Positions 4,678 to 53,363 of a stretch of DNA of 64,000 nucleotides are shown here, in pieces. Position 1 is the stretch's first letter; each line of letters starts with the position of its first letter. The translations under genes were made by a program, and so were the position numbers. The notes below the pieces were generated by a model, which worked only from the letters and a program-made list of their open reading frames with translations, was not told the DNA's origin and made no database searches. Source of the stretch: a virus; IMG/VR virus record IMGVR_UViG_3300035703_000047, positions 1-64,000 of that record; one strand, given 5' to 3'.

Positions 4678-5414
4678 AACTCGTTCTTAATTAACAACAT
4701 ATCAAAAGCAGCAGTGTATCTACCGTTGTTGCTTCTACTTGTAAGTCTTATATCAATATCCGAATGTTCTGGAATTTGAATTGGAAATGCAAATTTATAA
4801 AAATATTCTCCACCACCTCCACTGACTTCAAAAGTATGCCCGACTCTAAATGCAGTTCCAGTGCTGTTATATCTAACATACATATATCCAGTGGCATCTG
4901 CGGATGCTTGAGCAGTGCAAACTCCCTGATACAAATAACCAGTATAACCATTAGGAACAGTATAAACAGTCATTAGAGTTTGTCCAAGTCCTGCAAGAAT
5001 TCTAAGAACTTCTGTTCCACCTCTAGAAAAATTGAGTTGACCTATATTAGTATCACCAGTTTTTACAAATCCCCTAAAAACTCTTTTGAAAGTTTTGGTT
5101 CCAGTGACTGTTCCTGCACTTGATAATGTAAAGTCTTCTTCAATAATATCCCAATTTGAATCAAGACCAATAATAGTTACTACTTTTCCATTATCATCTG
5201 CACCAACTTGTGCCGCTACAAGAACTCCAGGAGCATTAAAAGCACTCCAAGGATATAAAGTATCTGATTTATCCCAAACAGTTGCCGTAACATTAGTTGA
5301 CTGTGTTGGAGTAGCACCAAACTTATGAAGTGTTGATGCCCCACGAACTTTTCCACGAGCAACATTCAAATCAAATTGTTCATCCCAAATATAATTTTTA
5401 AATGCCATAATCAA
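4674..5414 (-). CDS. Hypothetical beta-rich protein, probably virion-associated
   Basis: Long ORF in the late block, Gly/Thr-rich. Confidence 0.7.
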   Translation of the reverse strand: MIMAFKNYIWDEQFDLNVARGKVRGASTLHKFGATPTQSTNVTATVWDKSDTLYPWSAFNAPGVLVAAQVGADDNGKVVTIIGLDSNWDIIEEDFTLSSAGTVTGTKTFKRVFRGFVKTGDTNIGQLNFSRGGTEVLRILAGLGQTLMTVYTVPNGYTGYLYQGVCTAQASADATGYMYVRYNSTGTAFRVGHTFEVSGGGGEYFYKFAFPIQIPEHSDIDIRLTSRSNNGRYTAAFDMLLIKNEL

Positions 5415-5725
5415 TCAATCCATTCTAACTTTGATGGGTGATATCTCTGTGCGTTTTTAACTTTTACTGAACTTGTTGAGTTTGGATAAACATTATGCAC
5501 AATTGCACCTGGATATTCATCTTGCAGTTGTTCTGCAAGTTCATTTTTATCCATAATTTTACCTTCAACTTCCATACGATAAATCTTACCCTGCCAAACT
5601 ACATCAGCAAGAAAAGATTCTTTGACTGGTTCTGATTGTGTTTCTGAGCCATTGATATAGAGATTTCCGTTGAAATCTCCAGCAATGTTGATGGCTTCTG
5701 ATAAAAATTGATTAAAGGATTTCAT
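5411..5725 (-). CDS. Putative internal head protein with a CTS-like leader (MKSFNQFLSE)
   Basis: Start at ATG 5725 overlapping the upstream TAA; W-x-G...YPGA domain also found in the 547-aa protein. Confidence 0.7.
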   Translation of the reverse strand: MKSFNQFLSEAINIAGDFNGNLYINGSETQSEPVKESFLADVVWQGKIYRMEVEGKIMDKNELAEQLQDEYPGAIVHNVYPNSTSSVKVKNAQRYHPSKLEWID

Positions 5726-6190: not shown

Positions 6191-9100
6191 TTAACAATTC
6201 CAGGCTCTCAAACTTTTGTTAATTCTGGAATCAGGATCGTTAGCAGTTTTAGCAGAAGTAAGTTTCTCCTTCATGCCTTTCATTCTTGAACAAAATGATG
6301 CACGACGAGGATTACCAACTTTCTTTGAAGGTGCCTTCAAATCAGAACCAGGATTCTCGCGTTCGTAGGACTTACGGCCTTTTTCGTTTAATCCGCCTGA
6401 CTCAGACTTTCCCTCTTTCTTTGTCCATGCAGCAGACTCACCAAGTTTGGAAGCACGTCGTTTTGCCTTGTTTCCAGAACCTCTATCTCTGTTTTTACCC
6501 ACAACACTTGCCCAGTAATCTTTATTTTTTCTATTTGCTTCACCACCAATACTGCGTTCATCTTCTGGAGCACTTATTCCACCACGCTTTCTCACTGGTG
6601 GTTCTTCCTTTTGACGCCTTCTTTGTTTTTTGAAGTCATCCATGGTCATACCCTCTTCAATTTCAGTTTCTTCTTTAGAAACTACCATCATCATAGGATT
6701 TCTAGATCCCATTAATCTTGCCTTGGTTTTTACAAGATTAACTTTAGTTGGAAGATCTCTCATATCTTTTTTAGGGGTTTCTTCCTTCTCTTTTTCATCG
6801 CATCCACAACCCTCACTCATATTCGGATTAATCTCAATTTTATTTTTCTTTTTTGTCACATCAATAATTTTTTGTTGTGGTTCTTTGATTGATTGATCGT
6901 CAACTTCAAAAATAAATTCTTCTCTCCAATTGGAATACTCTTCCATTCTTGACTTAATAAGTGAAGATTTCAATGCTGGATTTCTTCTAGCTCTTTGACC
7001 TAGACTCATTCCAGTTTCTCTTTTGGGTTTACCAGTTTCACCTGCAGCAGGAAGTCTTTTTGTAGATGGAACTAGTTTCTTTCTCTCTGGACTTACAGGT
7101 AACTTTTTCCTTTCTGGAGTACCAGATAATTTTTTAGGAGTTGTGTCGGTCTTTTTTTCATCACTTTTTATAGAAACTCTCTCTGCAGATGTAGTTTCTG
7201 GTTTAGATTCAGATTTTACTGGTTCCTTCTTTTCGGATTTAGGAGGTTCAGATCCCTTCTCACCTTTTTTTTCTGTTGCTTTTTTATAAGCATACTTACC
7301 AAGAGCAACTCCAGTTTTAGCAACTGCTGAAACCAAATTTCCAACATTACTTACACCTGCAGATACTGCTTCAGTATCTTTTTTATCCCCAGCAACTTTT
7401 ATAGGTTTACTCCAAGCAGACTTAATATCCCCTTTCAGTTCAGATCTTCTTTTTTTCCTAGACTGTTCCCTTTCTTTTATCTGACTAATTTTTTCCTTTT
7501 CCTTTCTCTCCAATTCTTTTTGTCTTTCTTTAGATTTACTTTGTTTTGCCTTTTCTTCCTCTTTTGATTTTCTGGTTTCCTCCTTTTTTCTTTCCTGTTC
7601 GGATTTCTTTTGTTCCCTCTCTTTTTTACTCTTCTCAGTATAACTGAGTCTTTCGCGTTGTCTTTCAGTTCTAGCAGCTTCTTTTTCCTTTTCAGCCTCT
7701 CTTGCAATTCTTGCAGCCTTTACTCTACCAGCAGCAGAAGTTCTTGCAGCTCTTTCAGTTGCAGTGTTTCTGGTCTTTACTTCGTCTTTTGCTTTTTCTT
7801 TTTTTGTCTTCTCTTTATCTTCCTTTGGAGTTTCTTTTTCCTTGACTTCATCTCTCATCATCTTATTAGCTTTAGTAGCTACTTTAGCTTGATGAAGTCT
7901 ATCTTGCTGCTTTTTTGAGCGTTCTTCTCTCCTGGCTTTTGCAGCCATAAGTTGTGCATCAGAAACTTCTAGAAGAATTCTATCTACTAAACACAACTCC
8001 TCTTTAGTATCTTCTTTCTTTTCAGGAAGTCCTTCATGTTTTGTCTTTGCAAAATCTCTTGCAGCTTTCTTAGACATGCCAGATGCAGCCTTTGCAACTT
8101 CGGGAGATGCGGGAGTCCCACCTTTCTTCGCGGCATAAACCATACCCATAAATCTTTGTTGTGCTCTACTTAGAGACTTTTCTTCAAGATATCCTTCACC
8201 CATTGCTTTTTGCTTGCGGAGTTTCTTGGGATTCTTCGTCTTATCTGCTGAGTAGTTACTATCATCACCCTCAGGGTCCATAGAACTGCGATGTCTTGTT
8301 CTTCTTTCTTCATCATCCAGTTTTGCACGGTTGGACTTTGCCTCATCTGGAGAATATGTTCTACCACTGTTGTACCATTCTTTACCTACATGACCTCTCT
8401 TCTTAGCATCGGCAGAGGCTTCTCTACGCTTGAGTTTTCTGCGGTTTGCTTTGAAGTCCTTCATGGACATTCCTTCATCAAGATCGTTTTCCTCTTTCTG
8501 AACACGAAACTTTCCACCAGTTTCCTTATGAGTATCAGAAAGTTCATCAGCTCTATCATGAGCATACTTTCTACTCTTTACTGGTTTGCCAATTTTCTTT
8601 TCTTTCTTACCATCGTGAGAACCATATACCTGATATGGCATTTCCTCAATGTATTCCTCTTTAGTTACAAGTCCAATCGGATTTTTATTTTTCTTTGTAA
8701 TTTTATCATGAGCTTTAATAGAAATCTCTTGATAATCTGCATAAGTTTTACCTGCAGATGGACCTTCTCTACCAGGACTTTTTGCAGCCTTACCACCTTT
8801 TTCTTTTCTTTCCTCAGCTCTTTCTCTTGCAGCAACCTTTCTCATCTCACGACGATACTCTTTATCCTCTTCAACCATTTCACCTTCTGGTTCAAAGTGA
8901 GCAACCTGAGTGGTTTTTACACTTGGTTTAGAAGCTCCCTTAAATGCTGGAAATCCACCCGGATATGATTTGAGAACAGGACTATCAAGTTTTTTTCTAG
9001 TCTTATTCAAAACATCATCATCTCCATGGTATCCTTGTCTTTGATCCCCTACTACTCTTCTCGCTCTATCACCAATATCACTCTCGTCAATCTGTTCGAC

Positions 9101-9523
9101 ATCTTCTTTCATTTTTTCTCTTCTAGCCTTTGACTTCGCAAGAATTCTCTCACGAGCAGCTTCCTGTTCAGACTTGGGGATATTAAACATATCTCTATCA
9201 GTCTTCAGTCTTTCCTGAGGGGGAATGACTTTAGCTCTAACTTTTCTACGATTTAAAAGATACTTATCAGACTTATCGTGATCTCCGTCGTTGTCAATAT
9301 CCTTATCTTCCTGACCTACTGGGTCAAGAGCTTCTTCTACTTTCTTTTTCTTGTCAGCAGCAATCGCAGCACCAACAGTAGCTCTTCTCTTCTTCAAATA
9401 GCTATCGGAAGAATCCGAATCACCATCATTATCCACGTCGTCATCTTCTTGACCGACTGGATCTAATTTTTTAGATGCTTTAGCTTCTGCAACAATACGC
9501 GAAAATTCTTCCCAACTAGCCAT
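6191..9523 (-). CDS. 1110-aa modular Lys/Glu-rich late protein, putative protease-processed polyprotein
   Basis: Repeated modules with acidic linkers; C-terminal AWTKKEGK...RINKSLRAWNC module; late promoter at 9550-9555. Confidence 0.8.
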   Translation of the reverse strand: MASWEEFSRIVAEAKASKKLDPVGQEDDDVDNDGDSDSSDSYLKKRRATVGAAIAADKKKKVEEALDPVGQEDKDIDNDGDHDKSDKYLLNRRKVRAKVIPPQERLKTDRDMFNIPKSEQEAARERILAKSKARREKMKEDVEQIDESDIGDRARRVVGDQRQGYHGDDDVLNKTRKKLDSPVLKSYPGGFPAFKGASKPSVKTTQVAHFEPEGEMVEEDKEYRREMRKVAARERAEERKEKGGKAAKSPGREGPSAGKTYADYQEISIKAHDKITKKNKNPIGLVTKEEYIEEMPYQVYGSHDGKKEKKIGKPVKSRKYAHDRADELSDTHKETGGKFRVQKEENDLDEGMSMKDFKANRRKLKRREASADAKKRGHVGKEWYNSGRTYSPDEAKSNRAKLDDEERRTRHRSSMDPEGDDSNYSADKTKNPKKLRKQKAMGEGYLEEKSLSRAQQRFMGMVYAAKKGGTPASPEVAKAASGMSKKAARDFAKTKHEGLPEKKEDTKEELCLVDRILLEVSDAQLMAAKARREERSKKQQDRLHQAKVATKANKMMRDEVKEKETPKEDKEKTKKEKAKDEVKTRNTATERAARTSAAGRVKAARIAREAEKEKEAARTERQRERLSYTEKSKKEREQKKSEQERKKEETRKSKEEEKAKQSKSKERQKELERKEKEKISQIKEREQSRKKRRSELKGDIKSAWSKPIKVAGDKKDTEAVSAGVSNVGNLVSAVAKTGVALGKYAYKKATEKKGEKGSEPPKSEKKEPVKSESKPETTSAERVSIKSDEKKTDTTPKKLSGTPERKKLPVSPERKKLVPSTKRLPAAGETGKPKRETGMSLGQRARRNPALKSSLIKSRMEEYSNWREEFIFEVDDQSIKEPQQKIIDVTKKKNKIEINPNMSEGCGCDEKEKEETPKKDMRDLPTKVNLVKTKARLMGSRNPMMMVVSKEETEIEEGMTMDDFKKQRRRQKEEPPVRKRGGISAPEDERSIGGEANRKNKDYWASVVGKNRDRGSGNKAKRRASKLGESAAWTKKEGKSESGGLNEKGRKSYERENPGSDLKAPSKKVGNPRRASFCSRMKGMKEKLTSAKTANDPDSRINKSLRAWNC
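9260..9470 (-). repeat. Duplicated LDPVGQEDxDxDNDGDxDxSDxYLxxRR module
   Basis: Two copies near the N-terminus of the 1110-aa protein; DxDNDG resembles a Ca-binding loop. Confidence 0.85.
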
Positions 9524-9548: not shown

Positions 9549-10802
9549 TTATTTATTCTTTTTGCCCTTACGGAATTTATCGTAAATGGAAGCAATCTTA
9601 ACACCAGTATAACTCTTAACCTCTTGACCTGGAGTTAATGACTGAACATAGTCTCTATACTCATCTGTACCAATCTCATGGGGATTCTCAACAAGATCTT
9701 TCAACCACGACTTAAACATTATACCGTCTTCAGTAACACAAATAACATAATTTGTTCCCCTACGAATAACTTCTCCAGTCAACCCTGTATTCATATTTTC
9801 GACAAGATTACCAACCCCATAAATGTGATCTACAAGATACGCATCTCTCATACCTTCTTCATCGAGTTTAGGAGCAACCTCCCATACTTCAGTCTCCTCA
9901 CTCACATTCATAGATCTACGAAGGACATTAAAGAGTTCCATTTTTTCCATGTTAGTAAGAGTATCTGGAACACCCTTTGCAAACTTCACAAAATTACCTT
10001 CCGCTGCAGCCAAACGAAGTTTAGATGCAGACATTCCAGTTACATCATCAGAGTCTGGATCTCTATCTCCTGCAGAAACTACTTCTAGTTGATCATAGTT
10101 ATAGAGTTCACCATTATACTTGTGACTTAAACCTTGAAACTCACTAAGTCTATCAGCACCAACCATAATGATCATGTTCTTATGACCTTCTTCATTTGAA
10201 CCAGTCAGTACATTGAAAATTGTCTTAGAACCCTTGTCATCAATAATACTATCCGCATAATCAGGGAACATTTGACGCATGTAAGAAATCTTCATCTGTG
10301 GAGTTAAAGGATTCTTCTTTGCGTCTTGTGAACGAGATGGGTAGATTCTTAGTTCATAACCTCTCTTTTCCGCTTCTTTTGCAGCTCTCTTTAAAAGTTT
10401 TTCGTGTCCAACTGTCGGTGGATTAAATCTACCAAATACTACTACAACTCCAGGTGTTTCTGGAACTGGCATTTCTGCAGGAACTTGTTCTTGAGAAGAT
10501 TGTTGTTCTGGTGGAACTTGTTGTGTAGTTTGTTGAGTAGGTTCTTGTGTAACATCCTGTTGTGTTTGTTGTGCAACTTGTGGTTGTGCTGCAGGTGTTT
10601 GTGGTTGACTTGGAGAGTCCTTTTGACCTGGGGTATTATCACTACCAAAAAATTTCAGTTTACCAGCCACGGTTTTAGCAACAAATTCGCCTTGCTTATC
10701 GTACCATCCTCCATGGCCATCTCCAGTCAAACCAAGTCTTTTGGCTTCGGAAGATGCAGAGGTTTCTCTGGCTTCGATGAGGAAGTTACTAAAATTTTTC
10801 AT
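9549..10802 (-). CDS. Cytidylyltransferase-like (HIGH/HxGH-superfamily) nucleotidyltransferase with a CTS-like leader
   Basis: VVFGRFNPPTVGH, VGADR, MSASKLR; N-terminus MKNFSNFLIE; late promoter at 10836-10841. Confidence 0.85.
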   Translation of the reverse strand: MKNFSNFLIEARETSASSEAKRLGLTGDGHGGWYDKQGEFVAKTVAGKLKFFGSDNTPGQKDSPSQPQTPAAQPQVAQQTQQDVTQEPTQQTTQQVPPEQQSSQEQVPAEMPVPETPGVVVVFGRFNPPTVGHEKLLKRAAKEAEKRGYELRIYPSRSQDAKKNPLTPQMKISYMRQMFPDYADSIIDDKGSKTIFNVLTGSNEEGHKNMIIMVGADRLSEFQGLSHKYNGELYNYDQLEVVSAGDRDPDSDDVTGMSASKLRLAAAEGNFVKFAKGVPDTLTNMEKMELFNVLRRSMNVSEETEVWEVAPKLDEEGMRDAYLVDHIYGVGNLVENMNTGLTGEVIRRGTNYVICVTEDGIMFKSWLKDLVENPHEIGTDEYRDYVQSLTPGQEVKSYTGVKIASIYDKFRKGKKNK

Positions 10803-19014: not shown

Positions 19015-19197
19015 TTAGTCGCCGTTACCACCATCGGAATCACCACCCCCGCCTGGATTCTTAGGCATAGCTTTTCCTGCAGAGACTGTTTTTGATTTAC
19101 CAGTCAACGGATTGTAGATTTTATGTCTAACGGCAGCAGGGTAAGAAATCTGTTTAATGTTTCCGACTTGTTCTAAGAACTGCTTAAAGGATTTCAT
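19015..19197 (-). CDS. 60-aa protein with a CTS-like leader (MKSFKQFLEQ)
   Basis: Overlaps the hsp20 end; AAGG SD. Confidence 0.65.
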   Translation of the reverse strand: MKSFKQFLEQVGNIKQISYPAAVRHKIYNPLTGKSKTVSAGKAMPKNPGGGGDSDGGNGD

Positions 19198-19621
19198 ACA
19201 CCTTTCGTTTCTGATGTTCAGGAATAATCCTATTTAGTTTGATGTGGAGAAGACCATCCTCAAACTTAACATCAGATACTTTAACATCGTCGGAAAGTGT
19301 CCAAGTCCTCGTAAAGGCCCTCTTTGCAAGACCATTGTGAAGATATTCTCCTAGATCCGAAGTTTCCCCCTTCTTCGCTTCAACGAAGAGTTTATTCCAT
19401 TCAGTGAAAACTTCAATATCTTCTCTTTTATATCCCGCAAGAGCAATCTCTAAACGAAACTCAGTTTCGCTCTCCTTAATCAAATTATATGGTGGATAGT
19501 TCGTTGAAGTTTCATGAACCGTTCCCAAACGGTTGAACCATTCATCCATACCAATACTGTATTTTTCAACATCATTTAAAAATTTGTCAATGTTAGCCGT
19601 GTTGTATTTTGCGAGTAACAT
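19184..19621 (-). CDS. hsp20: Small heat shock protein
   Basis: NYPPYNL, ALAGY, FTRTWTL, DGLLHI alpha-crystallin motifs. Confidence 0.95.
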   Translation of the reverse strand: MLLAKYNTANIDKFLNDVEKYSIGMDEWFNRLGTVHETSTNYPPYNLIKESETEFRLEIALAGYKREDIEVFTEWNKLFVEAKKGETSDLGEYLHNGLAKRAFTRTWTLSDDVKVSDVKFEDGLLHIKLNRIIPEHQKRKVYEIL

Positions 19622-40730: not shown

Positions 40731-41939
40731 TCACTTTTTAGCAACGTTGGAAAGTGCTCTTAAATAAGCATCCATAGAAGGTGAATGAATCACTTCTTGG
40801 AAATTAGCTTCTTCCTTTAGGTTTTCCGTTTCGTCAGCTGGAGCACTAGCGTGTTCTGGGAAGTAAGACTTCCTTAGAGTTACTAGTTTCTCACGATAGT
40901 TCGCTTCACTCTCAAACTCAACACTTTCTGCAAGGCTTGCAAACTTATCCTTTTGGGATAGTGCGAGACCTTCTGCAACTTCGCCAAAAATTCTGTCAGC
41001 AGAACTTTCGGAGAGCTTTTGATTAAGAGCAATATTGCGCTCAATCTGCTCGTTGAGTTTTGTCTCCATATCATCAAGTTTTTGTACCATGCTCTCTAGT
41101 ACATCATATTTCTCTTCAGGCATTGATACATAATGTTCTTCAAAAAGACCCTTCATTCCAACAATGAAGGATTCCGTGATCTCAGTCTTAAGACCACTTT
41201 CAATGGCAAGAGCATTCTCTTCTAACCACTCGGAAGCAACATACTCTAGGTATGAGTCAACACGTTCGGTTAGTTCTAGTTTGATTTCTTCAACCTCTTC
41301 TGCAAGAGCTTCAGCATAATTTTCTTCCAAAATAGATTGAATTTCCTTTGTTTTCGAGTGTAAAGCAGCTTCGAATACAAGCTTCGCTTTCTCTTTGAAT
41401 TCCTCGGAGAGATCATCTTCACCAGAGAGAAGAGCATTAACGTCTTCATCAATAATAGAATCTACGTCTTCTTCAACGACTTCTTCCTCTTCAGACTCTT
41501 CTACTTCAATTTCCTCGCCTTCAGACTCCTCACCTTCTTCTGCAACGATTTCTTCATACTCTTCTTCTTCAACTTCCTCTTTCATACCACCACCTTGACC
41601 TGGGGTAGAAACAGAAGTTGCTGAAGTCTCAGCACCTTGAGCTGCAGCAGCTTTAGCATTTACAACATCCTTAACTTGCTTAAGAGTTGCACCAGGAGTC
41701 TTTAGCGTATTGCTATTATCATCTGGTCTGCTATTTTCTGGTGTAGGGCCTCCAAGATCTTCCCAACCACCAGTTTGACCTGGAGTTGCAACAGGGGTTG
41801 CACTTTTTTCTGGGGAAGCCGGTGCAGATGCGTTAGCATTTACAGCGGTTTTGGATTGTGAAGTGCCGCTTCCTGCGCCACCGCCCTGGCCGGGGGTAGC
41901 AACAGATTCCATTTCTTGTAAATTGTTACCACGGGACAT
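40731..41939 (-). CDS. gp22: Prohead core scaffold protein
   Basis: LSEEFKEKAKLVFEAA, very acidic, upstream of gp23. Confidence 0.93.
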   Translation of the reverse strand: MSRGNNLQEMESVATPGQGGGAGSGTSQSKTAVNANASAPASPEKSATPVATPGQTGGWEDLGGPTPENSRPDDNSNTLKTPGATLKQVKDVVNAKAAAAQGAETSATSVSTPGQGGGMKEEVEEEEYEEIVAEEGEESEGEEIEVEESEEEEVVEEDVDSIIDEDVNALLSGEDDLSEEFKEKAKLVFEAALHSKTKEIQSILEENYAEALAEEVEEIKLELTERVDSYLEYVASEWLEENALAIESGLKTEITESFIVGMKGLFEEHYVSMPEEKYDVLESMVQKLDDMETKLNEQIERNIALNQKLSESSADRIFGEVAEGLALSQKDKFASLAESVEFESEANYREKLVTLRKSYFPEHASAPADETENLKEEANFQEVIHSPSMDAYLRALSNVAKK

Positions 41940-41984: not shown

Positions 41985-42635
41985 TTATAGATTTGACAGA
42001 AACTCTTGGAACAGATTTAACTTCTGTTCATCAAGTCTTCTCTGGTCTATAAGTGTATTTATTCTTTTTTGGGTTCTTTCTGCAAGTTGTTCACGAAGGA
42101 TTCCTCCATCCCAAACCCACTCTTTGCCTTCCATAATTCCAGAAACAAAAGCATCTGGAGCGGAAGGATCAGCAACGATATCAGCTGCAGTAGCAAGCAT
42201 GAAATCTTCACCGACAATTTTGTGTCCTTCACTAGTTGTTTGTAGAGAACCTACACCACGAGAAGAAACACCAAGCATTACGCCCTCATCCAAAAGGGAG
42301 GATGCAATCTTACCCATAGGAGTATTAAGAATTTGTGCTTTACCTTTGAAGTTATTACCTTCCTGAACTAGTGAAGTAATCTTATGCGAAACGCGATCAA
42401 GATTTACTGTTGGGCCATCTGGATGGCCAAGTTCTCCAAGAGCACGACCTTTTTGAACAAACTGCTCATTGTAACGATCTACTTCACGGGAAAGAACATT
42501 AATTGGATACATTCTTCCATTGCGATTTTTAATTTCTCCTTGGAGAAATACGCCTTCAATATAGAGTTTTTTATTAACACCTTTTCCTTCGGTGATAATC
42601 TTTACATTCGTTACTTCTTCGGTAATTAGTTTCAT
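41985..42635 (-). CDS. gp21: Prohead protease
   Basis: NRNGRMY, GELGHP, GVSSRG, DIVADPSAPDA. Confidence 0.96.
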   Translation of the reverse strand: MKLITEEVTNVKIITEGKGVNKKLYIEGVFLQGEIKNRNGRMYPINVLSREVDRYNEQFVQKGRALGELGHPDGPTVNLDRVSHKITSLVQEGNNFKGKAQILNTPMGKIASSLLDEGVMLGVSSRGVGSLQTTSEGHKIVGEDFMLATAADIVADPSAPDAFVSGIMEGKEWVWDGGILREQLAERTQKRINTLIDQRRLDEQKLNLFQEFLSNL

Positions 42636-48157: not shown

Positions 48158-48388
48158 TTACCAATCTGGATATTGCCAGTACAAATTTGTAGATTTTTGT
48201 TTTCTATTACTAATAATTCTTCTTTTTGTACACTCTTTACATTCGTATGAATATGCTGAAGGTATGTCACCCCTACCTTTGCGTGTCAAATAAAATCCAT
48301 CTATAAGATCTTTAATTTCTGCACAAACTCTACATTTTCGTTCAGTGAGAAATAGATGTTCTAATTCAAACTGATCTTCTATATTCAT
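48158..48388 (-). CDS. Small Zn-finger-like protein
   Basis: CRVC...CKEC. Confidence 0.7.
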   Translation of the reverse strand: MNIEDQFELEHLFLTERKCRVCAEIKDLIDGFYLTRKGRGDIPSAYSYECKECTKRRIISNRKQKSTNLYWQYPDW

Positions 48389-50037
48389 TATCTATAGTCC
48401 CACATATATTGACTATCTCCATATTCATCAACATGCCATCTATTACCATCTTCATCCACAAAACTCTCACCACCTTCCAGTCCATCAGTAATAAATCCGA
48501 ATGGTGCCATATCTTGTTCAATTTGATTCTTTTGTTCTTCATATAATCTTTTACGAACATCATTATCGGTCATCTCTTTGAAATATGGTTGCATAATCAA
48601 CCATGAAAAAATAACTAAACACATTGCGAGATCATCATTACAACCATCTTCTGCTTCAAAGGAGTTTGACTTTTGAATAAAAGTTGTCAATTCACTTATA
48701 GTGTCATAGTCCTTTATAAGAAGTTTATCGGATTCAATTAATGCCTTAAGATTCATACATCCAATCTTTTTAACATTCTTTGACATTTTAACTCCCATTT
48801 GAGATTTCTTTCCAGAAAATCCCTGCCCAACTAATTGTCCGGCTCGACCTCTCATCGTACACATTAAGACATTATCGTACTCCAAGTCCATGTGGAGGAT
48901 TTGTCCTACTTGTTCTCCAACATCATTTACTTCTACAAGAATATATGCTTTATTATAAGCAACAGCAAGATCTTTTATGATACTTGGAAACAACATCGGT
49001 TTAATTTGATTGTTTCTATATTTTGCTACAAGTCTATATGGAAATGTCGTTGTATCACAAACAGTGAATGCGGAGTAATCTTTTTCTACACCACGAGCTA
49101 CATCTACAGTTAAAACATAATTGTGATCTTTTTGTGGTTCCTCATAAATGTCCAATCCTGCATTAGATTTAATTGGATCTTCATACACTAAAGATCTGAG
49201 TTTTGCTGCAGATACAAGTGTATCCGAAGATCCCAAGAAATCACATTCAAACTCTTGTTGGAATTGTTCTTTTGAAGTGTTGGCTATCGTCTGGGCTTTC
49301 CACTTATCGTCTCTGCCTGGAACTTCAGACCAATGTACATCCGTGGGTATATATTCATTTCTACCCCTTTCGGCGTCATGCCACATGCGGTAAAAGTGAT
49401 TCATACCCTTGGGGGTAGAAACTATGATAACTTTTGTGCTTTGTCCAGACGATATAGTAGGATAAACAGAGGCAAAGAATTCATCAGCAATGTGATTCGG
49501 TATGAAAGCGAACTCGTCCAAAAAGATGATATTATATGATCCGCCTCGGACAGCAGATGCAGAAGTAGATGCGGCGATAATTTTGGAACCATTTTCCAGT
49601 TCTAAAGATCGTTTATTCCATGATACAATACCTTGTTGCATCCACTTCGGCAGTTTCTCGTATGCAAATTGTAACCTACTAAGTAAATCCTGTGCAGTAG
49701 ACGCTTTGTTGGCTAGAATAGCTATATTAACATTATCATTAAATACAGCATAATGTAACAAATATGAAACACAAGTAGTAGATTTACCCGTCTGACGAGG
49801 CATTCTACAAATATTAAATCTATTTTCATGGAAGTTGGTGATCAACTTTTCCTGAAAAGGATACATCTTAAACGGTATTTCACCATAATCAAGGGAAACA
49901 ATTTTAATATAATTTTTAGCAAAATACACAGGATCATTCTTGCACTTGATAAACTCAAGAATTTGTTCCTGTGTAAATTCTACGGCTACATTAGCCTTTT
50001 TGAGATTGGGATTACCAAGATATACCTGATCACTCAT
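48388..50037 (-). CDS. gp17: Terminase large subunit
   Basis: PRQTGKS, FLDEFAF, DVARG, NDDLAM. Confidence 0.97.
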   Translation of the reverse strand: MSDQVYLGNPNLKKANVAVEFTQEQILEFIKCKNDPVYFAKNYIKIVSLDYGEIPFKMYPFQEKLITNFHENRFNICRMPRQTGKSTTCVSYLLHYAVFNDNVNIAILANKASTAQDLLSRLQFAYEKLPKWMQQGIVSWNKRSLELENGSKIIAASTSASAVRGGSYNIIFLDEFAFIPNHIADEFFASVYPTISSGQSTKVIIVSTPKGMNHFYRMWHDAERGRNEYIPTDVHWSEVPGRDDKWKAQTIANTSKEQFQQEFECDFLGSSDTLVSAAKLRSLVYEDPIKSNAGLDIYEEPQKDHNYVLTVDVARGVEKDYSAFTVCDTTTFPYRLVAKYRNNQIKPMLFPSIIKDLAVAYNKAYILVEVNDVGEQVGQILHMDLEYDNVLMCTMRGRAGQLVGQGFSGKKSQMGVKMSKNVKKIGCMNLKALIESDKLLIKDYDTISELTTFIQKSNSFEAEDGCNDDLAMCLVIFSWLIMQPYFKEMTDNDVRKRLYEEQKNQIEQDMAPFGFITDGLEGGESFVDEDGNRWHVDEYGDSQYMWDYR

Positions 50038-50040
50038 AAA

Positions 50041-50217
50041 TTACGACTTCGCTAAATTCGCTACTACTTCCTGTTGTTTGAGATAAAGTTTAAAATAAGC
50101 CTTTGCAAACTCTATTGCTTCTTCTTTATCTAATTTATCTATAACCCTTGATTGTTGTTCATAAATCAACATTTTATTAATATCTTCAAGCACAATTTTA
50201 GAAGGGTCTATATTCAT
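50041..50217 (-). CDS. 58-aa NblA-like helical protein (below ORF-track cutoff)
   Basis: MNIDPSKIVLEDINKMLIYEQQSRVIDKLDKEEAIEFAKAYFKLYLKQQEVVANLAKS; fills the gap exactly. Confidence 0.6.
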   Translation of the reverse strand: MNIDPSKIVLEDINKMLIYEQQSRVIDKLDKEEAIEFAKAYFKLYLKQQEVVANLAKS

Positions 50218-50218
50218 T

Positions 50219-51862
50219 TTATTTACCTTGAATAACTACGATTGGTTTGGATGGATCAGTAGGACTTGGATACCACTGCAGTATAACTGCACCCGGATAG
50301 AACTTCTCAATTTCCGTTTTTACTTCATCTTTAGAAGGTCTCTTCATATTTGGGAAGAAGAGTTGAAGATTCATCATTGGTCTACCTCTCCAAGAGAAGA
50401 GTATAGTATAAACATTACCAGTAGATTGTATCCGTTGATAGTCCTCGTTTGTTAATTGTCCAGGTTGAATTACAGAATCTGCAAGAGGTAAAGAGGGGCC
50501 AGAAAGTTTTTTAAGTGCGGCGTTCTTTTCATTTGGATTAGTATTACCAGTTGCAAGATTTCTGATTTTTGCTTGCCTTTGTGCCTGTCTATGTCCAGAA
50601 CCAATTTCAAAACTCACATTCTCATTTGCTGGATGAATATCATTTGGATCATATGGATCTGGAGCTAGAGAAGCTGGAAGTGAAAACATTCTCCAATAAC
50701 CTTCACCATATCTACACTCTTTCATTGTTTCGTTCTTTTTACACTTAGGGCAATATCTCTGAACTTCCCCCATTTCCTGAAGTTCAAAAGATTCCTTCTT
50801 GGTCTTATTGCCCCAATTCTTTGCGCCCACTTTACGACACTTAACGAGAGCACCAGATGCATATGCAGATGGCCAAACCTTATAACGAGACTTTACCTTT
50901 GAATAACATGCATCTTTTTCTTCAGTCGCAACCATCTTTGCCTTACCCTTTCTATCGGGATTGGGGTCTTCTTGATTCTTACGACGGAATGCACTCTCCT
51001 CTTCCTTATCGGAAAGATCTGCTTTCATTTTACTTGAACCGCACTTTGGTTTGGTTGTTTGTCCTGGTTGTTTTGCACAGGGTTTTCCCGAGTATTTACC
51101 ACCCAATTGAACCCAACCAGGGGTGCCATCAGAAGCGCGACTCTTAGTAAACCAGTCACGCAAAGAATAATCACCACTCTTGTTTTCATTAATAAAATCC
51201 TCCTTCACACAATTAGGAACTACTTTCTTCCCCTTCTTCTTCATTCCAAGTTGTTTATATCCATCCCAACATTTCTCAAATACTGGTTCACTAAAGCTCT
51301 TAAATTTATAATCACTACCCTTAATAATATCAACAACGTGTGCAAAAGTATTGCCATTTGCATCGTGAAGTTCTGTCCACTCTTCCTTTACTTTTTCCAT
51401 CTTTTTGAGTTTGGAGTAGTAATTAGGAATTTCATCTAGATGTTGCAATGCAATATCCATTGCTTCATTATTATCTGTAGTATGTTCATGTTCAACTTTT
51501 ATCCCCATCTCAAGTTGTTTTTGGATGGTTGATGGGGATACTTTATGCTTTTTTGCGATTTCTTCTACTGACTTATGACCTTTGAATCCTTCTTTGACTT
51601 CTTTCTTTCTTTCAGTATCATCTTCTCCGTGAGAAAGATGATCAGCTACCGTATCAAGATACTCTGCAGCCTTTGTAATTTTTGATTGAACCCAAGCTTC
51701 TAAATCGCCTTCACCTTTAAGTTTAGTCATTAATCTGGTGATAGCAGCCTGTGCAGTTTTAAGTTCTCCACGAGCCATGGAAAACTCAAAGTCTTCCCCA
51801 AGAGGTGTAATAACTTCTAGATCTGCAAGAATAGACCACTCTTTAAATGTGAGTTTATCCAT
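50219..51862 (-). CDS. 547-aa modular late protein between gp16 and gp17, putative polyprotein
   Basis: About 9 unrelated short modules bounded by x-x-E sites. Confidence 0.8.
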   Translation of the reverse strand: MDKLTFKEWSILADLEVITPLGEDFEFSMARGELKTAQAAITRLMTKLKGEGDLEAWVQSKITKAAEYLDTVADHLSHGEDDTERKKEVKEGFKGHKSVEEIAKKHKVSPSTIQKQLEMGIKVEHEHTTDNNEAMDIALQHLDEIPNYYSKLKKMEKVKEEWTELHDANGNTFAHVVDIIKGSDYKFKSFSEPVFEKCWDGYKQLGMKKKGKKVVPNCVKEDFINENKSGDYSLRDWFTKSRASDGTPGWVQLGGKYSGKPCAKQPGQTTKPKCGSSKMKADLSDKEEESAFRRKNQEDPNPDRKGKAKMVATEEKDACYSKVKSRYKVWPSAYASGALVKCRKVGAKNWGNKTKKESFELQEMGEVQRYCPKCKKNETMKECRYGEGYWRMFSLPASLAPDPYDPNDIHPANENVSFEIGSGHRQAQRQAKIRNLATGNTNPNEKNAALKKLSGPSLPLADSVIQPGQLTNEDYQRIQSTGNVYTILFSWRGRPMMNLQLFFPNMKRPSKDEVKTEIEKFYPGAVILQWYPSPTDPSKPIVVIQGK

Positions 51863-51885: not shown

Positions 51886-52317
51886 TTATTTAGATTGATT
51901 CTGATTCACTGAACTCTTTAAAAACTTTTGAAGTTCTGCAGTAGATCCTAAGAATACCGCATTATTTGTAACGTTTGTTGGTATGGATCCTTTTTGTTCC
52001 TGATTAATATCTTTCATCTTCTTTTGAAGATCTATGAGTTTATCAGTAACATCTCCAACGTTTTTAATTAATTGTCCAGCAACTTCATATGCTCTTGGAG
52101 AATCAGATTCTTGTGCGAGTTCTAGAATACCATTAATCGCTTCTTGACCTTTTTCAATAATTGAATAGAGTTGACCTCTAGAATACTCATAATCTTTTTG
52201 AAGTTGATCTGAAGAGTCTGTAGGGTTCTTTATTGCAGTGGGTTCAGCCTTAACAATCTCCGATTGAATCAGAGTTGTTTCAATATCTAAAGCCTTATCG
52301 ATATCTTCAAAACTCAT
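51886..52317 (-). CDS. gp16: Terminase small subunit
   Basis: DYEYSR, PRAYEVA, FLGSTAEL. Confidence 0.93.
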   Translation of the reverse strand: MSFEDIDKALDIETTLIQSEIVKAEPTAIKNPTDSSDQLQKDYEYSRGQLYSIIEKGQEAINGILELAQESDSPRAYEVAGQLIKNVGDVTDKLIDLQKKMKDINQEQKGSIPTNVTNNAVFLGSTAELQKFLKSSVNQNQSK

Positions 52318-53363
52318 ACATCAATTCCTTTGGTGGTACTATAAATTTTTCCATCTGCAAAATCATAACGGGACTCACTAAATCCAAAATCATCATCGAG
52401 ATTGATTAATTCATCATCCGAATCATCAATTACATTGAGTCCTGTTCCAGCAACATGCGTAACAATACTAGTATTATCTTGACCTCTATTTACTAGTAGA
52501 GTATTACCACTAATTTTTCGAATGTACATAGACTCAGAATCAATCATAATATATGATTTTTCTACTAAAACTGATCCATCAACAACATCAAATTCTGTCA
52601 CTTCTGCAGAAATATCCTCTGCAATTTGTGTAATTTCATCATTATTATAATCTTGTAATGCTCTAACTTTTGCCATATACCTTAACTGTCTAGAAGCATT
52701 GACTCTATTTGTATTGGTATAATAATCAACTTGAACTTGTTTGATTAGAGCCTCATTTGGAGTTCCAACTGGACCAAAGAGATAAGTCTTAGCGACAAAA
52801 TCTAAAGTATAAACCAAAACTCTTCTTGTAGTATAATCACCTTCATATTGATCGTCCATCGAAATTCTTTCAAGAATCATTGGAATATCTCTTTTCTCTC
52901 CAATGTCTGATACTAAATCTACAGTCAGATTAAAATGTGGTTGAAAGTAAGGCAATATCTGTTCCACTACTTGCAAAGCATCTTCATTCAATTTAGACAT
53001 TATCGAAAGTCTGAAATTCACATTATATGGGACAGGCATATAAACTTTTGTCAATTCGTTATTTGACTTATCTAACGCTTTAAAAGTTTGCATGGTAGAA
53101 GATTTTCTAGCAGCATCATAAGAAATTCCGGTCATCTCAAAGGACATTCTGGGAAGAGTAATTGCCACTCTCTTTTTTAAGTCTGGAACTTGTTCAATTC
53201 TAGCTAAAAACTTTTGAACAGGACCATATGCAATAGGTACTGTAATAATACTAAAATCATCACCTGCATTATCTTTATGTTTAATTTGAATATTATTAAA
53301 AAGTGTCCCGAAAGCAACTATAGTCTTTCTCAATATTTCATGGTAAAAATAATTTGAGATCAT
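52314..53363 (-). CDS. gp15: Tail sheath stabiliser / completion protein
   Basis: YFYHEI, FGTLFNNI, LPRMSFE, EQILPYFQP. Confidence 0.92.
   Translation of the reverse strand: MISNYFYHEILRKTIVAFGTLFNNIQIKHKDNAGDDFSIITVPIAYGPVQKFLARIEQVPDLKKRVAITLPRMSFEMTGISYDAARKSSTMQTFKALDKSNNELTKVYMPVPYNVNFRLSIMSKLNEDALQVVEQILPYFQPHFNLTVDLVSDIGEKRDIPMILERISMDDQYEGDYTTRRVLVYTLDFVAKTYLFGPVGTPNEALIKQVQVDYYTNTNRVNASRQLRYMAKVRALQDYNNDEITQIAEDISAEVTEFDVVDGSVLVEKSYIMIDSESMYIRKISGNTLLVNRGQDNTSIVTHVAGTGLNVIDDSDDELINLDDDFGFSESRYDFADGKIYSTTKGIDV

What the first reader, a model, noticed from the sequence alone, without database searches (positions are those of the whole stretch)
50219..51862. Second polyprotein-like gene inserted between the terminase subunits
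About 9 distinct mini-domains in series, each starting after a Glu site: LGE|DFEFSMARGEL..., VKE|GFKGHKSVEEIAKKH...MGIKVEHEH, VKE|EWTELHD, VFE|KCWDGY...PNC, INE|NKSGDYSLRDWF...KPC...PKC, ATE|EKDACYSKVK...PSAYASG..VKCR, LQE|MGEVQRYCPKC, ANE|NVSFEIG, LTNE|DYQRIQ. Several carry paired Cys or His clusters (metal or disulfide mini-folds). The N-terminus MDKLTFKEW resembles the TFKEF leader of T4 IPI. Its location in the packaging operon would co-express cargo with the head and packaging machinery.
Basis: partly seen in the sequence, partly recalled or inferred. Interest (0 to 1): 0.8.

Follow-up and report, generated by a model that had tools for sequence, protein, structure and literature searches.

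The report
Cyanophage head-cargo polyprotein of shuffled mini-proteins
This gene of a T4-like ocean cyanophage encodes a chain of about nine small, independently shuffled mini-proteins, most of them joined by the short motif that the phage's head-maturation protease should cut, so it is probably loaded into the capsid and chopped into peptides, although no cut has been measured.

Summary
ORF 50219-51862 (minus strand, 547 aa) lies between gp16 and gp17 of a T4-like cyanomyovirus. It belongs to the cyanophage family T4-GC119/phrog_727, which has more than 8000 relatives.

- **Structure:** AlphaFold gives beads on a string (pTM 0.23). Eight of the nine proposed joints fall in low-confidence linkers; TNE|D at 473 does not.
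- **Shuffling:** 267 relatives show 125 different module orders.
- **Junction motif:** At 417 independent junctions, hydrophobic-x-Glu precedes the module in 54% (7.7% expected). The enrichment holds for Glu (7x) but not Asp (1.0x), and for I/V/L at P3.
- **Leader:** The N-terminus matches the T4 IPI leader read from the T4 record. Relatives carry IPIII-type 10-residue leaders directly before a module.
- **Free-standing modules:** Module I is homologous to a free-standing 104-aa protein in this window with its own such leader. Module F exists as a free-standing 44-86 aa gene in 1469 clusters.
- **Virion evidence:** The S-SM1 family member was detected in purified virions (Sullivan 2010).

Cleavage, packaging of this particular protein and module function remain inferred. 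Three of the nine proposed sites (ATE, ANE, TNE) do not fit the enriched motif. The scan reached the same reading earlier on other genomes. I class it as a new variant of a known kind, T4 CTS/gp21-processed internal proteins.

The parts
50219..51862 (-). Whole ORF, 547 aa, member of T4-GC119 / phrog_727
   Evidence: (phrog_727 E 1e-77)
51794..51862 (-). Residues 1-23: IPI-type capsid-targeting-like leader (MDKLTFKEW...LGE|D), acidic, pI 4.4
   Evidence: 29 unique family N-termini are of this type, and all have hydrophobic-x-E|D at residues 21-24. The homolog P0099 starts MKTFKEW. Low pLDDT at 18-28.
51593..51793 (-). Module A, residues 24-90: two long helices, acidic; AW.QSK.T.A invariant
51383..51592 (-). 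Module B, residues 91-160: DUF5661, helical, HTH-like, invariant H127 and H141
   Evidence: PF18905, E 1.7e-14, 54.3 bits against a cut-off of 27; pLDDT about 80
51275..51382 (-). Module C, residues 161-196: short, acidic, poorly modelled
51185..51274 (-). Module D, residues 197-226: 30-aa basic beta-hairpin bracketed by invariant C198/C218 (KCW.GY...PNC)
   Evidence: (49/78 foreign junctions with the motif)
50921..51184 (-). Module E, residues 227-314: basic, invariant C262/C274; the most widespread module
   Evidence: (55/84)
50774..50920 (-). Module F, residues 315-363: basic three-helix mini-protein, invariant C319/C342; also a free-standing gene elsewhere
   Evidence: CRP-7 gp64; 1469 clusters of 26-86 aa; weak DUF5872 match, E 0.018; pLDDT 77
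50621..50773 (-). Module G, residues 364-414: C-x2-C...C zinc-ribbon-like unit, ends in the conserved HPANE
50444..50620 (-). Module H, residues 415-473: basic, helical, low confidence; absent from some relatives
   Evidence: (architectures such as ABCDEFGI)
50222..50443 (-). Module I, residues 474-547: beta-beta-alpha-beta domain with W.G...YPGA
   Evidence: pLDDT about 80; hhalign against the P0268 family: probability 95.7%, E 9.4e-9, 48 columns
51886..52317 (-). gp16, terminase small subunit, directly upstream
48388..50037 (-). gp17, terminase large subunit, downstream
41985..42635 (-). gp21-type prohead protease, the presumed processing enzyme
   Evidence: phrog_207, E 6.7e-82; 76 of 212 T4 gp21 residues identical, about 36%; GELGHP and GVSSRG conserved
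5411..5725 (-). Free-standing 104-aa homolog of module I, with its own IPIII-type leader MKSFNQFLSE|A
   Evidence: The leader pattern M-K-S-F-x-x-F-[LI]-S-E is conserved at 119-121 of the 121 family sequences.
6191..9523 (-). Second mosaic protein, 1110 aa, drawing on the same module pool (DUF6321 tail); no direct similarity to this one

Best explanation
The gene encodes a capsid-targeted cargo polyprotein.

Shown:
- It is a chain of about nine autonomous mini-modules joined by disordered linkers.
- The modules are shuffled, duplicated, lost and found as single genes in relatives.
- Most junctions carry a Glu-specific (I/V/L)-x-E motif.
- The N-terminus resembles the T4 IPI targeting propeptide.
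- The phage encodes a gp21-family (Peptidase_S77) prohead protease.

Inferred:
- The protein is made late with the head genes.
- The 23-residue leader docks it to the scaffolding core of the prohead.
- gp21 then removes the leader at LGE|D and cuts the linkers. This releases about 8-10 peptides of 3.5-10 kDa.
- The acidic pieces (leader, A, C) probably leave with the scaffold debris.
- The basic pieces (D, E, F, H, I; pI 9.3-10) probably stay with the packaged DNA and enter the host with it. Several of them are stapled by an invariant Cys pair.

What the released mini-proteins do is unknown. Candidates are DNA charge neutralisation or condensation, or early action on the host. The very high conservation of module F (about 75-90% identity among the free-standing copies aligned) fits binding to a conserved partner such as nucleic acid better than a fast arms-race role.
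For: - **Fold:** pTM is 0.23 with confident islands. Segments below pLDDT 50 cover 8 of the 9 proposed joints.
- **Shuffling:** 125 architectures occur in 267 relatives. Cultured phages differ at the same locus: A..H..D..EFI, E..FD, EFDIG, GE..FD plus DUF6321.
- **Junction motif:** 55% of 807 junctions carry it, against a background of 1.9% per position. Among junctions with an unrelated upstream context, 225 of 417 carry it against 7.7% expected.
- **Specificity control:** the P1 enrichment is 7.0x for E but 1.03x for D, 0.45x for K and 0.18x for Q. At P3 it is 10.2x for I, 7.8x for V and 5.6x for L, against 1.9x for K and 1.0x for E. In T4, Asp at the cleavage position blocks processing (PMC9026906).
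- **Leaders:** the T4 IPI, IPII and IPIII leaders were read from NC_000866. The family has 29 IPI-type, 9 IPIII-type and 4 short EF[LIV]xE leaders among 162 unique N-termini. The leader's terminal Glu sits exactly where the internal junction Glu sits, for example FINE|SKSGD in a leader against FINE|NKSGD here.
- **Module I:** it is homologous to a free-standing protein with its own leader.
- **Module F:** it is free-standing in 1469 clusters and in phage CRP-7.
- **Protease:**. gp23 of this phage has LGE54|A near the aligned T4 cut LTE65|A.
- **Protease co-occurrence:** Peptidase_S77 is present in the two most complete non-cyanophage records that carry F polyproteins. It is absent from the complete CRP-7 genome, where F is leaderless and alone.
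- **Virion evidence:** T4-GC119 was detected in purified S-SM1 virions with 13 peptide counts. T4-GC190 cytidylyltransferase, which here carries the leader MKNFSNFLIE|A, was detected with 25 counts.
Against: - No cleavage product has been measured for any family member.
- The motif is short. T4-type proteases leave many such sites uncut, and 46% of independent junctions lack it in the -2..+1 window, although many have it a few residues further upstream.
- ATE|E, ANE|N and TNE|D in this protein do not fit.
- The virion-detected S-SM1 member has no CTS-like leader.
- The Syn9 member was present in the genome but not detected in virions.
- The S-SCSM2R virion proteome lists only one protein of unknown function, and I could not see which.
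- 120 of 162 unique family N-termini show no recognisable leader. Some of these are fragments or miscalled starts.
- The specificity of the cyanophage protease is inferred from T4, not measured.
Confidence: 0.6

Rival explanations
1. It is a virion-associated beads-on-a-string protein that stays in one piece, or loses only its leader. The linkers are flexible tethers, and the modules act together, for example as a multivalent DNA- or capsid-binding protein.
For: Virion detection in S-SM1 says nothing about cleavage. The same beads-on-a-string fold is expected. T4 IPIII and Alt are cut only at their ends (PMC9026906). Three joints here lack the motif.
Against: A flexible tether has no reason to distinguish Glu from Asp, or to demand I/V/L two residues before it. 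The junction Glu coincides with the processing Glu of CTS-type leaders in relatives. Modules occur as single genes, so they function alone.
Confidence: 0.2
2. It is a cytoplasmic, non-packaged multidomain protein for host takeover or regulation, for example through the HTH-like DUF5661 module. It merely happens to lie in the hyperplastic g15-g18 region among auxiliary genes.
For: The region is a known dumping ground for host-like and accessory genes (PMC2984593). DUF5661 gives weak HTH-type matches. Syn9 gp114 was not found in virions. Sullivan et al. listed T4-GC119 as part of a possible mobile cassette.
Against: The S-SM1 member is in purified virions. The leaders resemble T4 IPI and IPIII. 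The junction motif is Glu-specific. F polyproteins co-occur with Peptidase_S77. There is no separate promoter or terminator on the coding strand.
Confidence: 0.1
3. It is an accessory scaffold or core component that is cut up like gp22 and expelled. It would then be assembly material rather than cargo.
For: T4 gp22, gp67 and gp68 are cut at many L/I-x-E sites (annotation; sites). Module A and the leader are acidic and helical like scaffold proteins.
Against: Most modules are basic with strictly conserved Cys pairs and sequences. That level of conservation is unnecessary for disposable scaffold. Peptides were still present in mature S-SM1 virions. Copy content varies wildly between phages that have the same capsid genes.
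Confidence: 0.07

Closest known systems
Phage T4 internal proteins IPI, IPII, IPIII (and Alt): capsid-targeting sequence plus gp21 processing
   Same: The N-terminal leader has the same determinants: TFKE[FW], aromatic residues in the targeting positions, and hydrophobic-x-Glu at its end. A homologous S77 prohead protease is present. The content is basic. A family member is in virions.
   Different: There is no sequence similarity to the mature T4 IPs (best E 0.8). T4 IPs are single proteins cut once at the leader. Here about nine unrelated mini-modules lie in series with putative internal cuts, are combinatorially shuffled, and also occur as single genes.
phiKZ / 201phi2-1 / SPN3US inner-body and head proteins processed by a gp21-like protease
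   Same: Many head-internal proteins are cut after Glu at several sites by a diverged gp21 homolog (PMC9026906). One 524-kb and one 260-kb phage record with F-containing polyproteins encode Peptidase_S77.
   Different: Those substrates are large proteins that lose propeptides. According to my own recollection, not checked here, the reported motif there has a small residue at P3. No chain of tiny shuffled modules has been described for them in the papers I searched.
Polyvalent proteins of phages and conjugative elements (Iyer et al. 2017, PMC5512222)
   Same: Highly variable multidomain architectures, delivered with the DNA, sometimes proteolytically processed.
   Different: None of their signature domains was found by Pfam. 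The modules here are far smaller (30-90 aa). No built-in peptidase is present. Processing would be by the head protease.
T4-GC119 'cyanophage-only structural protein' (Sullivan et al. 2010) / phrog_727
   Same: This is the family the gene belongs to. S-SM2_109 and S-SM1_115 are annotated T4-GC 119 and the S-B43 protein GC0119, and all match it.
   Different: The literature treats it as a hypothetical or structural protein and part of a mobile cassette. Neither modular nor polyprotein nature, nor protease-site junctions, are described in the papers I could search.

Membership tests
T4-GC119 / phrog_727 | Sequence homology to annotated members | tested here: met
   phrog_727 E 1e-77. tblastn matches to S-SM2_109, S-SM1_115, the S-B43 GC0119 protein and Syn9 gp114.
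T4-GC119 / phrog_727 | Location in the g15-g18 hyperplastic region of a T4-like cyanophage | tested here: met
   The order gp15-gp16-ORF-58aa-gp17-endoVII-gp18 in the window, with the same placement in S-SCSM2R, Syn9, S-SM2, S-B43 and S-SM1.
T4-GC119 / phrog_727 | Presence in purified virions | not testable with these tools
   Literature only: the S-SM1 member gave 13 peptide counts, the Syn9 member was not detected (PMC3037559, Table S8).
T4 CTS-bearing internal head proteins | N-terminal capsid-targeting sequence with aromatic residues at the targeting positions | tested here: inconclusive
   MDKLTFKEW compares with T4 IPI MKTFKEF. The register is shifted by two residues here and is exact in homolog P0099. 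No functional test is possible.
T4 CTS-bearing internal head proteins | Hydrophobic-x-Glu processing site at the end of the leader | tested here: met
   LGE23|D here. All 29 unique IPI-type leaders in the family have h-x-E|D at residues 21-24. Residues 18-28 have low pLDDT.
T4 CTS-bearing internal head proteins | Co-encoded gp21-family prohead protease | tested here: met
   ORF 41985-42635: phrog_207 E 6.7e-82. 76 of 212 T4 gp21 residues are identical (about 36%), with the His and Ser motifs conserved.
T4 CTS-bearing internal head proteins | Demonstrated packaging and cleavage | not testable with these tools
   No peptide-level data could be retrieved.
T4 CTS-bearing internal head proteins | Homology of the mature part to IPI, IPII or IPIII | tested here: not met
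   BLASTP best E 0.8. It works like them but is not a member by descent.
Polyvalent proteins (Iyer et al. 2017) | Signature conflict domains (MuF, ArdA/ArdC, methylases, zincin peptidase, LPD domains) | tested here: not met
   Pfam finds only DUF5661 over threshold. PADLOC was not run.
Polyvalent proteins (Iyer et al. 2017) | Many domains in highly variable order | tested here: met
   125 architectures in 267 relatives.
Pfam DUF5661 (PF18905) | Score over the gathering threshold | tested here: met
   Residues 100-157, 54.3 bits against 27, E 1.7e-14.
Pfam DUF5872 (PF19197), module F | Score over the gathering threshold | tested here: not met
   16 bits against 27.5, E 0.018, for free-standing F proteins. 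Atlas clusters carry it in 10-18% of members.

The most novel reading that the evidence does not exclude
T4-like cyanophages, and some other large phages with an S77 head protease, use a true polyprotein strategy. One late gene carries a combinatorial set of tiny, Cys-stapled, mostly basic mini-proteins. These are targeted to the prohead by an IP-type leader, released by the head protease and injected with the DNA. This would be a previously undescribed class of packaged peptide cargo in some of the most abundant viruses in the ocean, evolving by in-frame module shuffling at protease-site junctions.
Probability: 0.5. Interest if true: 0.8.

Novelty: new variant of a known kind. Interest (0 to 1): 0.66.

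Why it matters
T4-like cyanophages are among the most abundant viruses in the sea. Relatives of this gene were found in 387 of the phage records searched and in more than 8000 protein clusters.

If the reading holds, their capsids carry a variable set of small peptides that nobody has catalogued, made by a polyprotein mechanism that is rare in phages. That would:
- explain a large block of 'hypothetical' sequence;
- give a rule (leader plus I/V/L-x-E junctions) for predicting packaged cargo from sequence;
- offer natural leaders for loading foreign proteins into cyanophage heads, as the T4 CTS does;
- open the question of what strictly conserved 30-50 aa Cys-pair mini-proteins do on entering a cyanobacterium.

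Tried and rejected
- **Fold searches:** Foldseek against PDB gave nothing at E <= 0.001, either with the full model (best E 0.39) or with the module F model (no rows). The pdb_via and pdb_via_wide libraries were not on the machine.
- I used the search for related loci and the genome search instead.
- **Sequence comparisons that found nothing:** direct BLASTP against the window's other mosaic protein found no similarity, although both hit phrogs 727/3477/4359/38880. BLASTP against mature T4 IPs, gp22, gp67 and gp68 found nothing.
- **Family libraries and Atlas:** Pfam, PHROGs and the ESM Atlas gave only DUFs and unnamed viral clusters for the modules.
- **Late promoter:** TATAAATA is not enriched in the window (6 found, 6.0 expected), and no copy lies before this gene.
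- **Peptide-level proteomics:** I looked for virion data on S-SCSM2R (the nearest cultured relative), S-SCSM1 and S-CREM2. The protein lists or supplements were not held or do not identify the homolog.
- **Linker-composition explanation:** I considered that the junction motif is mere acidic-linker composition. I rejected this because Asp, Lys and Gln at P1 and charged residues at P3 are not enriched.
- **Extended-leader explanation:** I considered that module A is only an extended leader. I rejected this because it also occurs internally in many architectures.
Full report
**What is there.** The window is part of an 88,985-bp viral record from a T4-like cyanomyovirus. The nearest cultured relatives are S-SCSM2R (244 kb) and S-SRM01. 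On the minus strand the gene order is:

- gp13, gp14 and gp15 (52314-53363)
- gp16 (51886-52317)
- the 547-aa ORF (50219-51862)
- a 58-aa ORF (50041-50217)
- gp17 (48388-50037)
- an endonuclease VII-like 76-aa ORF
- gp18

The ORF starts 23 nt after the gp16 stop codon. No terminator-like site lies on the coding strand between gp15 and gp18, so co-transcription with the late structural genes is plausible but not shown. This position is the known hypervariable g15-g18 region of cyanomyoviruses (PMC2984593; PMC3037559).

**Family.**
- Pfam recognises only DUF5661, at residues 100-157.
- PHROGs gives phrog_727, function unknown, at E 1e-77.
- tblastn finds the gene in 382-387 phage records, nearly all cyanophages, but never over more than about 75% of its length.
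- The matches include genes annotated T4-GC 119 in S-SM2 and S-SM1 and 'structural protein, cyanophage only, GC0119' in S-B43.
- The large protein libraries each return the maximum of 8000 relatives. Lengths among those listed range from 140 to 851 aa.

**Is it modular?** Yes, by four independent lines.

2. I mapped nine query modules (A 24-90, B 91-160, C 161-196, D 197-226, E 227-314, F 315-363, G 364-414, H 415-473, I 474-547) on 267 relatives. This gave 125 architectures with changed order, duplication and loss, such as BGADEFI, EFD, EDF and EAFDI. At the same locus, cultured phages carry different chains:
   - S-SCSM2R: A..H..D..E-F-I
   - Syn9: E..F-D
   - S-SM2: ..A..E..F-D..I
   - S-B43: E-F-D-I-G
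   - S-SM1: G-E..F-D plus a DUF6321 tail. That tail is the C-terminus of the window's other mosaic protein.
3. AlphaFold2 with 92 relatives gives pTM 0.23. Confident islands are the helical DUF5661 at 100-155, a hairpin at 200-220, a C-x2-C unit at 370-395, and a beta-beta-alpha-beta domain at 480-535. Segments below pLDDT 50 cover every proposed joint except 473.
4. Modules exist as genes of their own.
   - Module I is homologous to the 104-aa protein at 5411-5725 (hhalign probability 95.7%, E 9.4e-9).
   - Module F is a 47-aa gene in Roseobacter phage CRP-7.
   - Module F is also a 26-86 aa protein in 1469 clusters. Alone it folds into three short helices with pLDDT 77.
   - The Cys pairs of D, E and F and the three Cys of G are conserved in at least 98% of instances.

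**Are the joints protease sites?** T4 gp21 cuts after Glu in L/I-x-E. In the T4 targeting sequence, the residues at positions 8 and 10 govern processing, and Asp at position 10 blocks it (PMC9026906).

- Over 807 unique junctions, [LIVMF]-x-E with the Glu at -2 to 0 of the module start occurs in 55%. The background is 1.9% per position.
- I then restricted to 417 junctions whose upstream context is unrelated to the query's and mutually distinct. Of these, 225 (54%) have the motif, against 7.7% expected.
- The control is the key result.

| Position tested | Residue | Enrichment |
|---|---|---|
| P1 (hydrophobic at P3) | Glu | 7.0x |
| P1 | Asp | 1.03x |
| P1 | Lys | 0.45x |
| P1 | Gln | 0.18x |
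| P3 (Glu at P1) | Ile | 10.2x |
| P3 | Val | 7.8x |
| P3 | Leu | 5.6x |
| P3 | Phe | 4.7x |
| P3 | Met | 4.5x |
| P3 | Lys | 1.9x |
| P3 | Glu | 1.0x |
| P3 | Asp | 0.5x |

- A flexible acidic linker would not tell Glu from Asp. A Glu-specific endopeptidase would.
- In this protein, 9 of 13 such sites lie in the 28.5% of residues with low confidence (p = 0.003).
- The phage has the enzyme. ORF 41985-42635 matches phrog_207, and 76 of the 212 residues of T4 gp21 (about 36%) are identical in the alignment, with the GELGHP and GVSSRG motifs conserved. Its gp23 has LGE54|A near the aligned T4 maturation cut LTE65|A.
- In 80 IMG/VR loci carrying module F, 44 are in T4-like context. Most of the others are polyproteins with ..LAE|K or ..MNE|K before F.
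- The two most complete of those other records (524 kb and 260 kb) encode Peptidase_S77. The complete CRP-7 genome, where F is alone and leaderless, does not. That last comparison rests on very few complete genomes.

**Is it targeted to the head?**
- Read from the T4 record, IPI begins MKTFKEF and is cut after ITE at residue 19. IPII and IPIII begin MKTYQEFIAE|A.
- This protein begins MDKLTFKEW and reaches LGE|D at residue 23. Homolog P0099 begins MKTFKEW.
- Among 162 unique family N-termini, 29 are of this IPI type, all with h-x-E|D at residues 21-24. Nine are IPIII-type 10-mers placed directly before a module, and four are a shorter EF[LIV]xE form.
- In those proteins the leader's terminal Glu falls exactly where the internal junction Glu falls. 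An example is ..FINE|SKSGD against ..FINE|NKSGD here.
- Four ORFs in this window carry such leaders:
  - this ORF itself;
  - the 104-aa module-I homolog;
  - a 60-aa ORF at 19197;
  - the cytidylyltransferase at 9549-10802.
- Published proteomics of purified S-SM1 virions detected T4-GC119 with 13 peptide counts and T4-GC190 cytidylyltransferase with 25. For comparison, gp21 gave 8 and gp14 gave 5. The Syn9 member was not detected, and S-PM2 lacks the gene (PMC3037559, Table S8).

**What is not shown.**
- No cut has been measured.
- ATE|E, ANE|N and TNE|D do not fit the enriched motif.
- The S-SM1 member that was found in virions has no CTS-like leader.
- Many family N-termini show none either.
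- The specificity of the cyanophage protease is assumed from T4.
- Module functions are unknown. There are no PDB fold matches, only DUFs, and no similarity to mature T4 IPs.

**Most likely mechanism (confidence 0.6).** The protein is synthesised late, and the leader docks it to the prohead core. gp21 then removes the leader and cuts the linkers. The acidic pieces (leader, A, C; pI 4.4-5.3) are lost. The basic, Cys-stapled pieces (D, E, F, H, I; pI 9.3-10) are kept with the DNA and injected. The rivals are an uncut multivalent virion protein (0.2), a cytoplasmic accessory protein (0.1) and a disposable scaffold accessory (0.07).

**Comparison and novelty.** It works like the T4 internal proteins but is not their homolog. 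It also resembles the multiply processed head proteins of phiKZ-like phages and, loosely, polyvalent proteins, whose signature domains it lacks. The gene family has been known since 2010 as a hypothetical or structural protein. The polyprotein reading was not found in the literature I searched. Other agents of this scan reached the same reading on other genomes. My tests were run independently on this window and agree. I add three things here: the Glu-versus-Asp control, the free-standing forms of modules F and I, and the protease co-occurrence check.

Noticed in passing
window 9549-10802 (-): The 417-aa cytidylyltransferase (phrog_395; T4-GC190, a cyanophage core gene) starts with an IPIII-type leader, MKNFSNFLIE|A. 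Its S-SM1 ortholog was detected in purified virions with 25 peptide counts. NMNAT-like proteins recur in cyanophage virion proteomes. The leader may explain how they get in.
   Followed up: partly
window 5411-5725 (-): A 104-aa protein (phrog_1742) has a leader, MKSF..F[LI]SE|S, that is conserved at 119-121 of 121 relatives. Its body is homologous to module I of the polyprotein.
   Followed up: yes
window about 19015-19197 (-): A 60-aa ORF starts MKSFKQFLEQ, just downstream of hsp20 (19184-19621). It has the same leader pattern but Gln instead of Glu at position 10.
   Followed up: no
window 6191-9523 (-): A 1110-aa, very Lys/Glu-rich mosaic protein has a repeated DPVGQED.D.DNDGD motif and a DUF6321 C-terminus. 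It shares PHROG families with the 547-aa protein but has no direct similarity. The S-SM1 T4-GC119 protein combines modules of both.
   Followed up: partly
window 50041-50217 (-): A 58-aa ORF lies between the polyprotein and gp17 (phrog_27081). The gene at the same position in S-SCSM2R is annotated NblA (phycobilisome degradation).
   Followed up: no
L008 3199-3342 (Roseobacter phage CRP-7 gp64) and P0391-P0510: Module F is a widespread free-standing mini-protein of 44-86 aa with 24 invariant positions. It is mostly leaderless, and sometimes has an MRA.EF[IL].E leader. No fold match was found in PDB.
   Followed up: partly
L007 2499-3035 (S-SM1 gene 114, T4-GC403): The gene directly after gp16 in S-SM1 and Syn9 (gp113) is an abundant virion protein in S-SM1 (60 peptide counts). 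It has no module in common with this ORF and is absent from this window's locus.
   Followed up: no
window 40731-41939 (-): The gp22 scaffold protein is 402 aa, against 269 aa in T4. It has a long low-complexity, Glu-rich N-terminal extension and 30 [LIVMF]xE sites.
   Followed up: no
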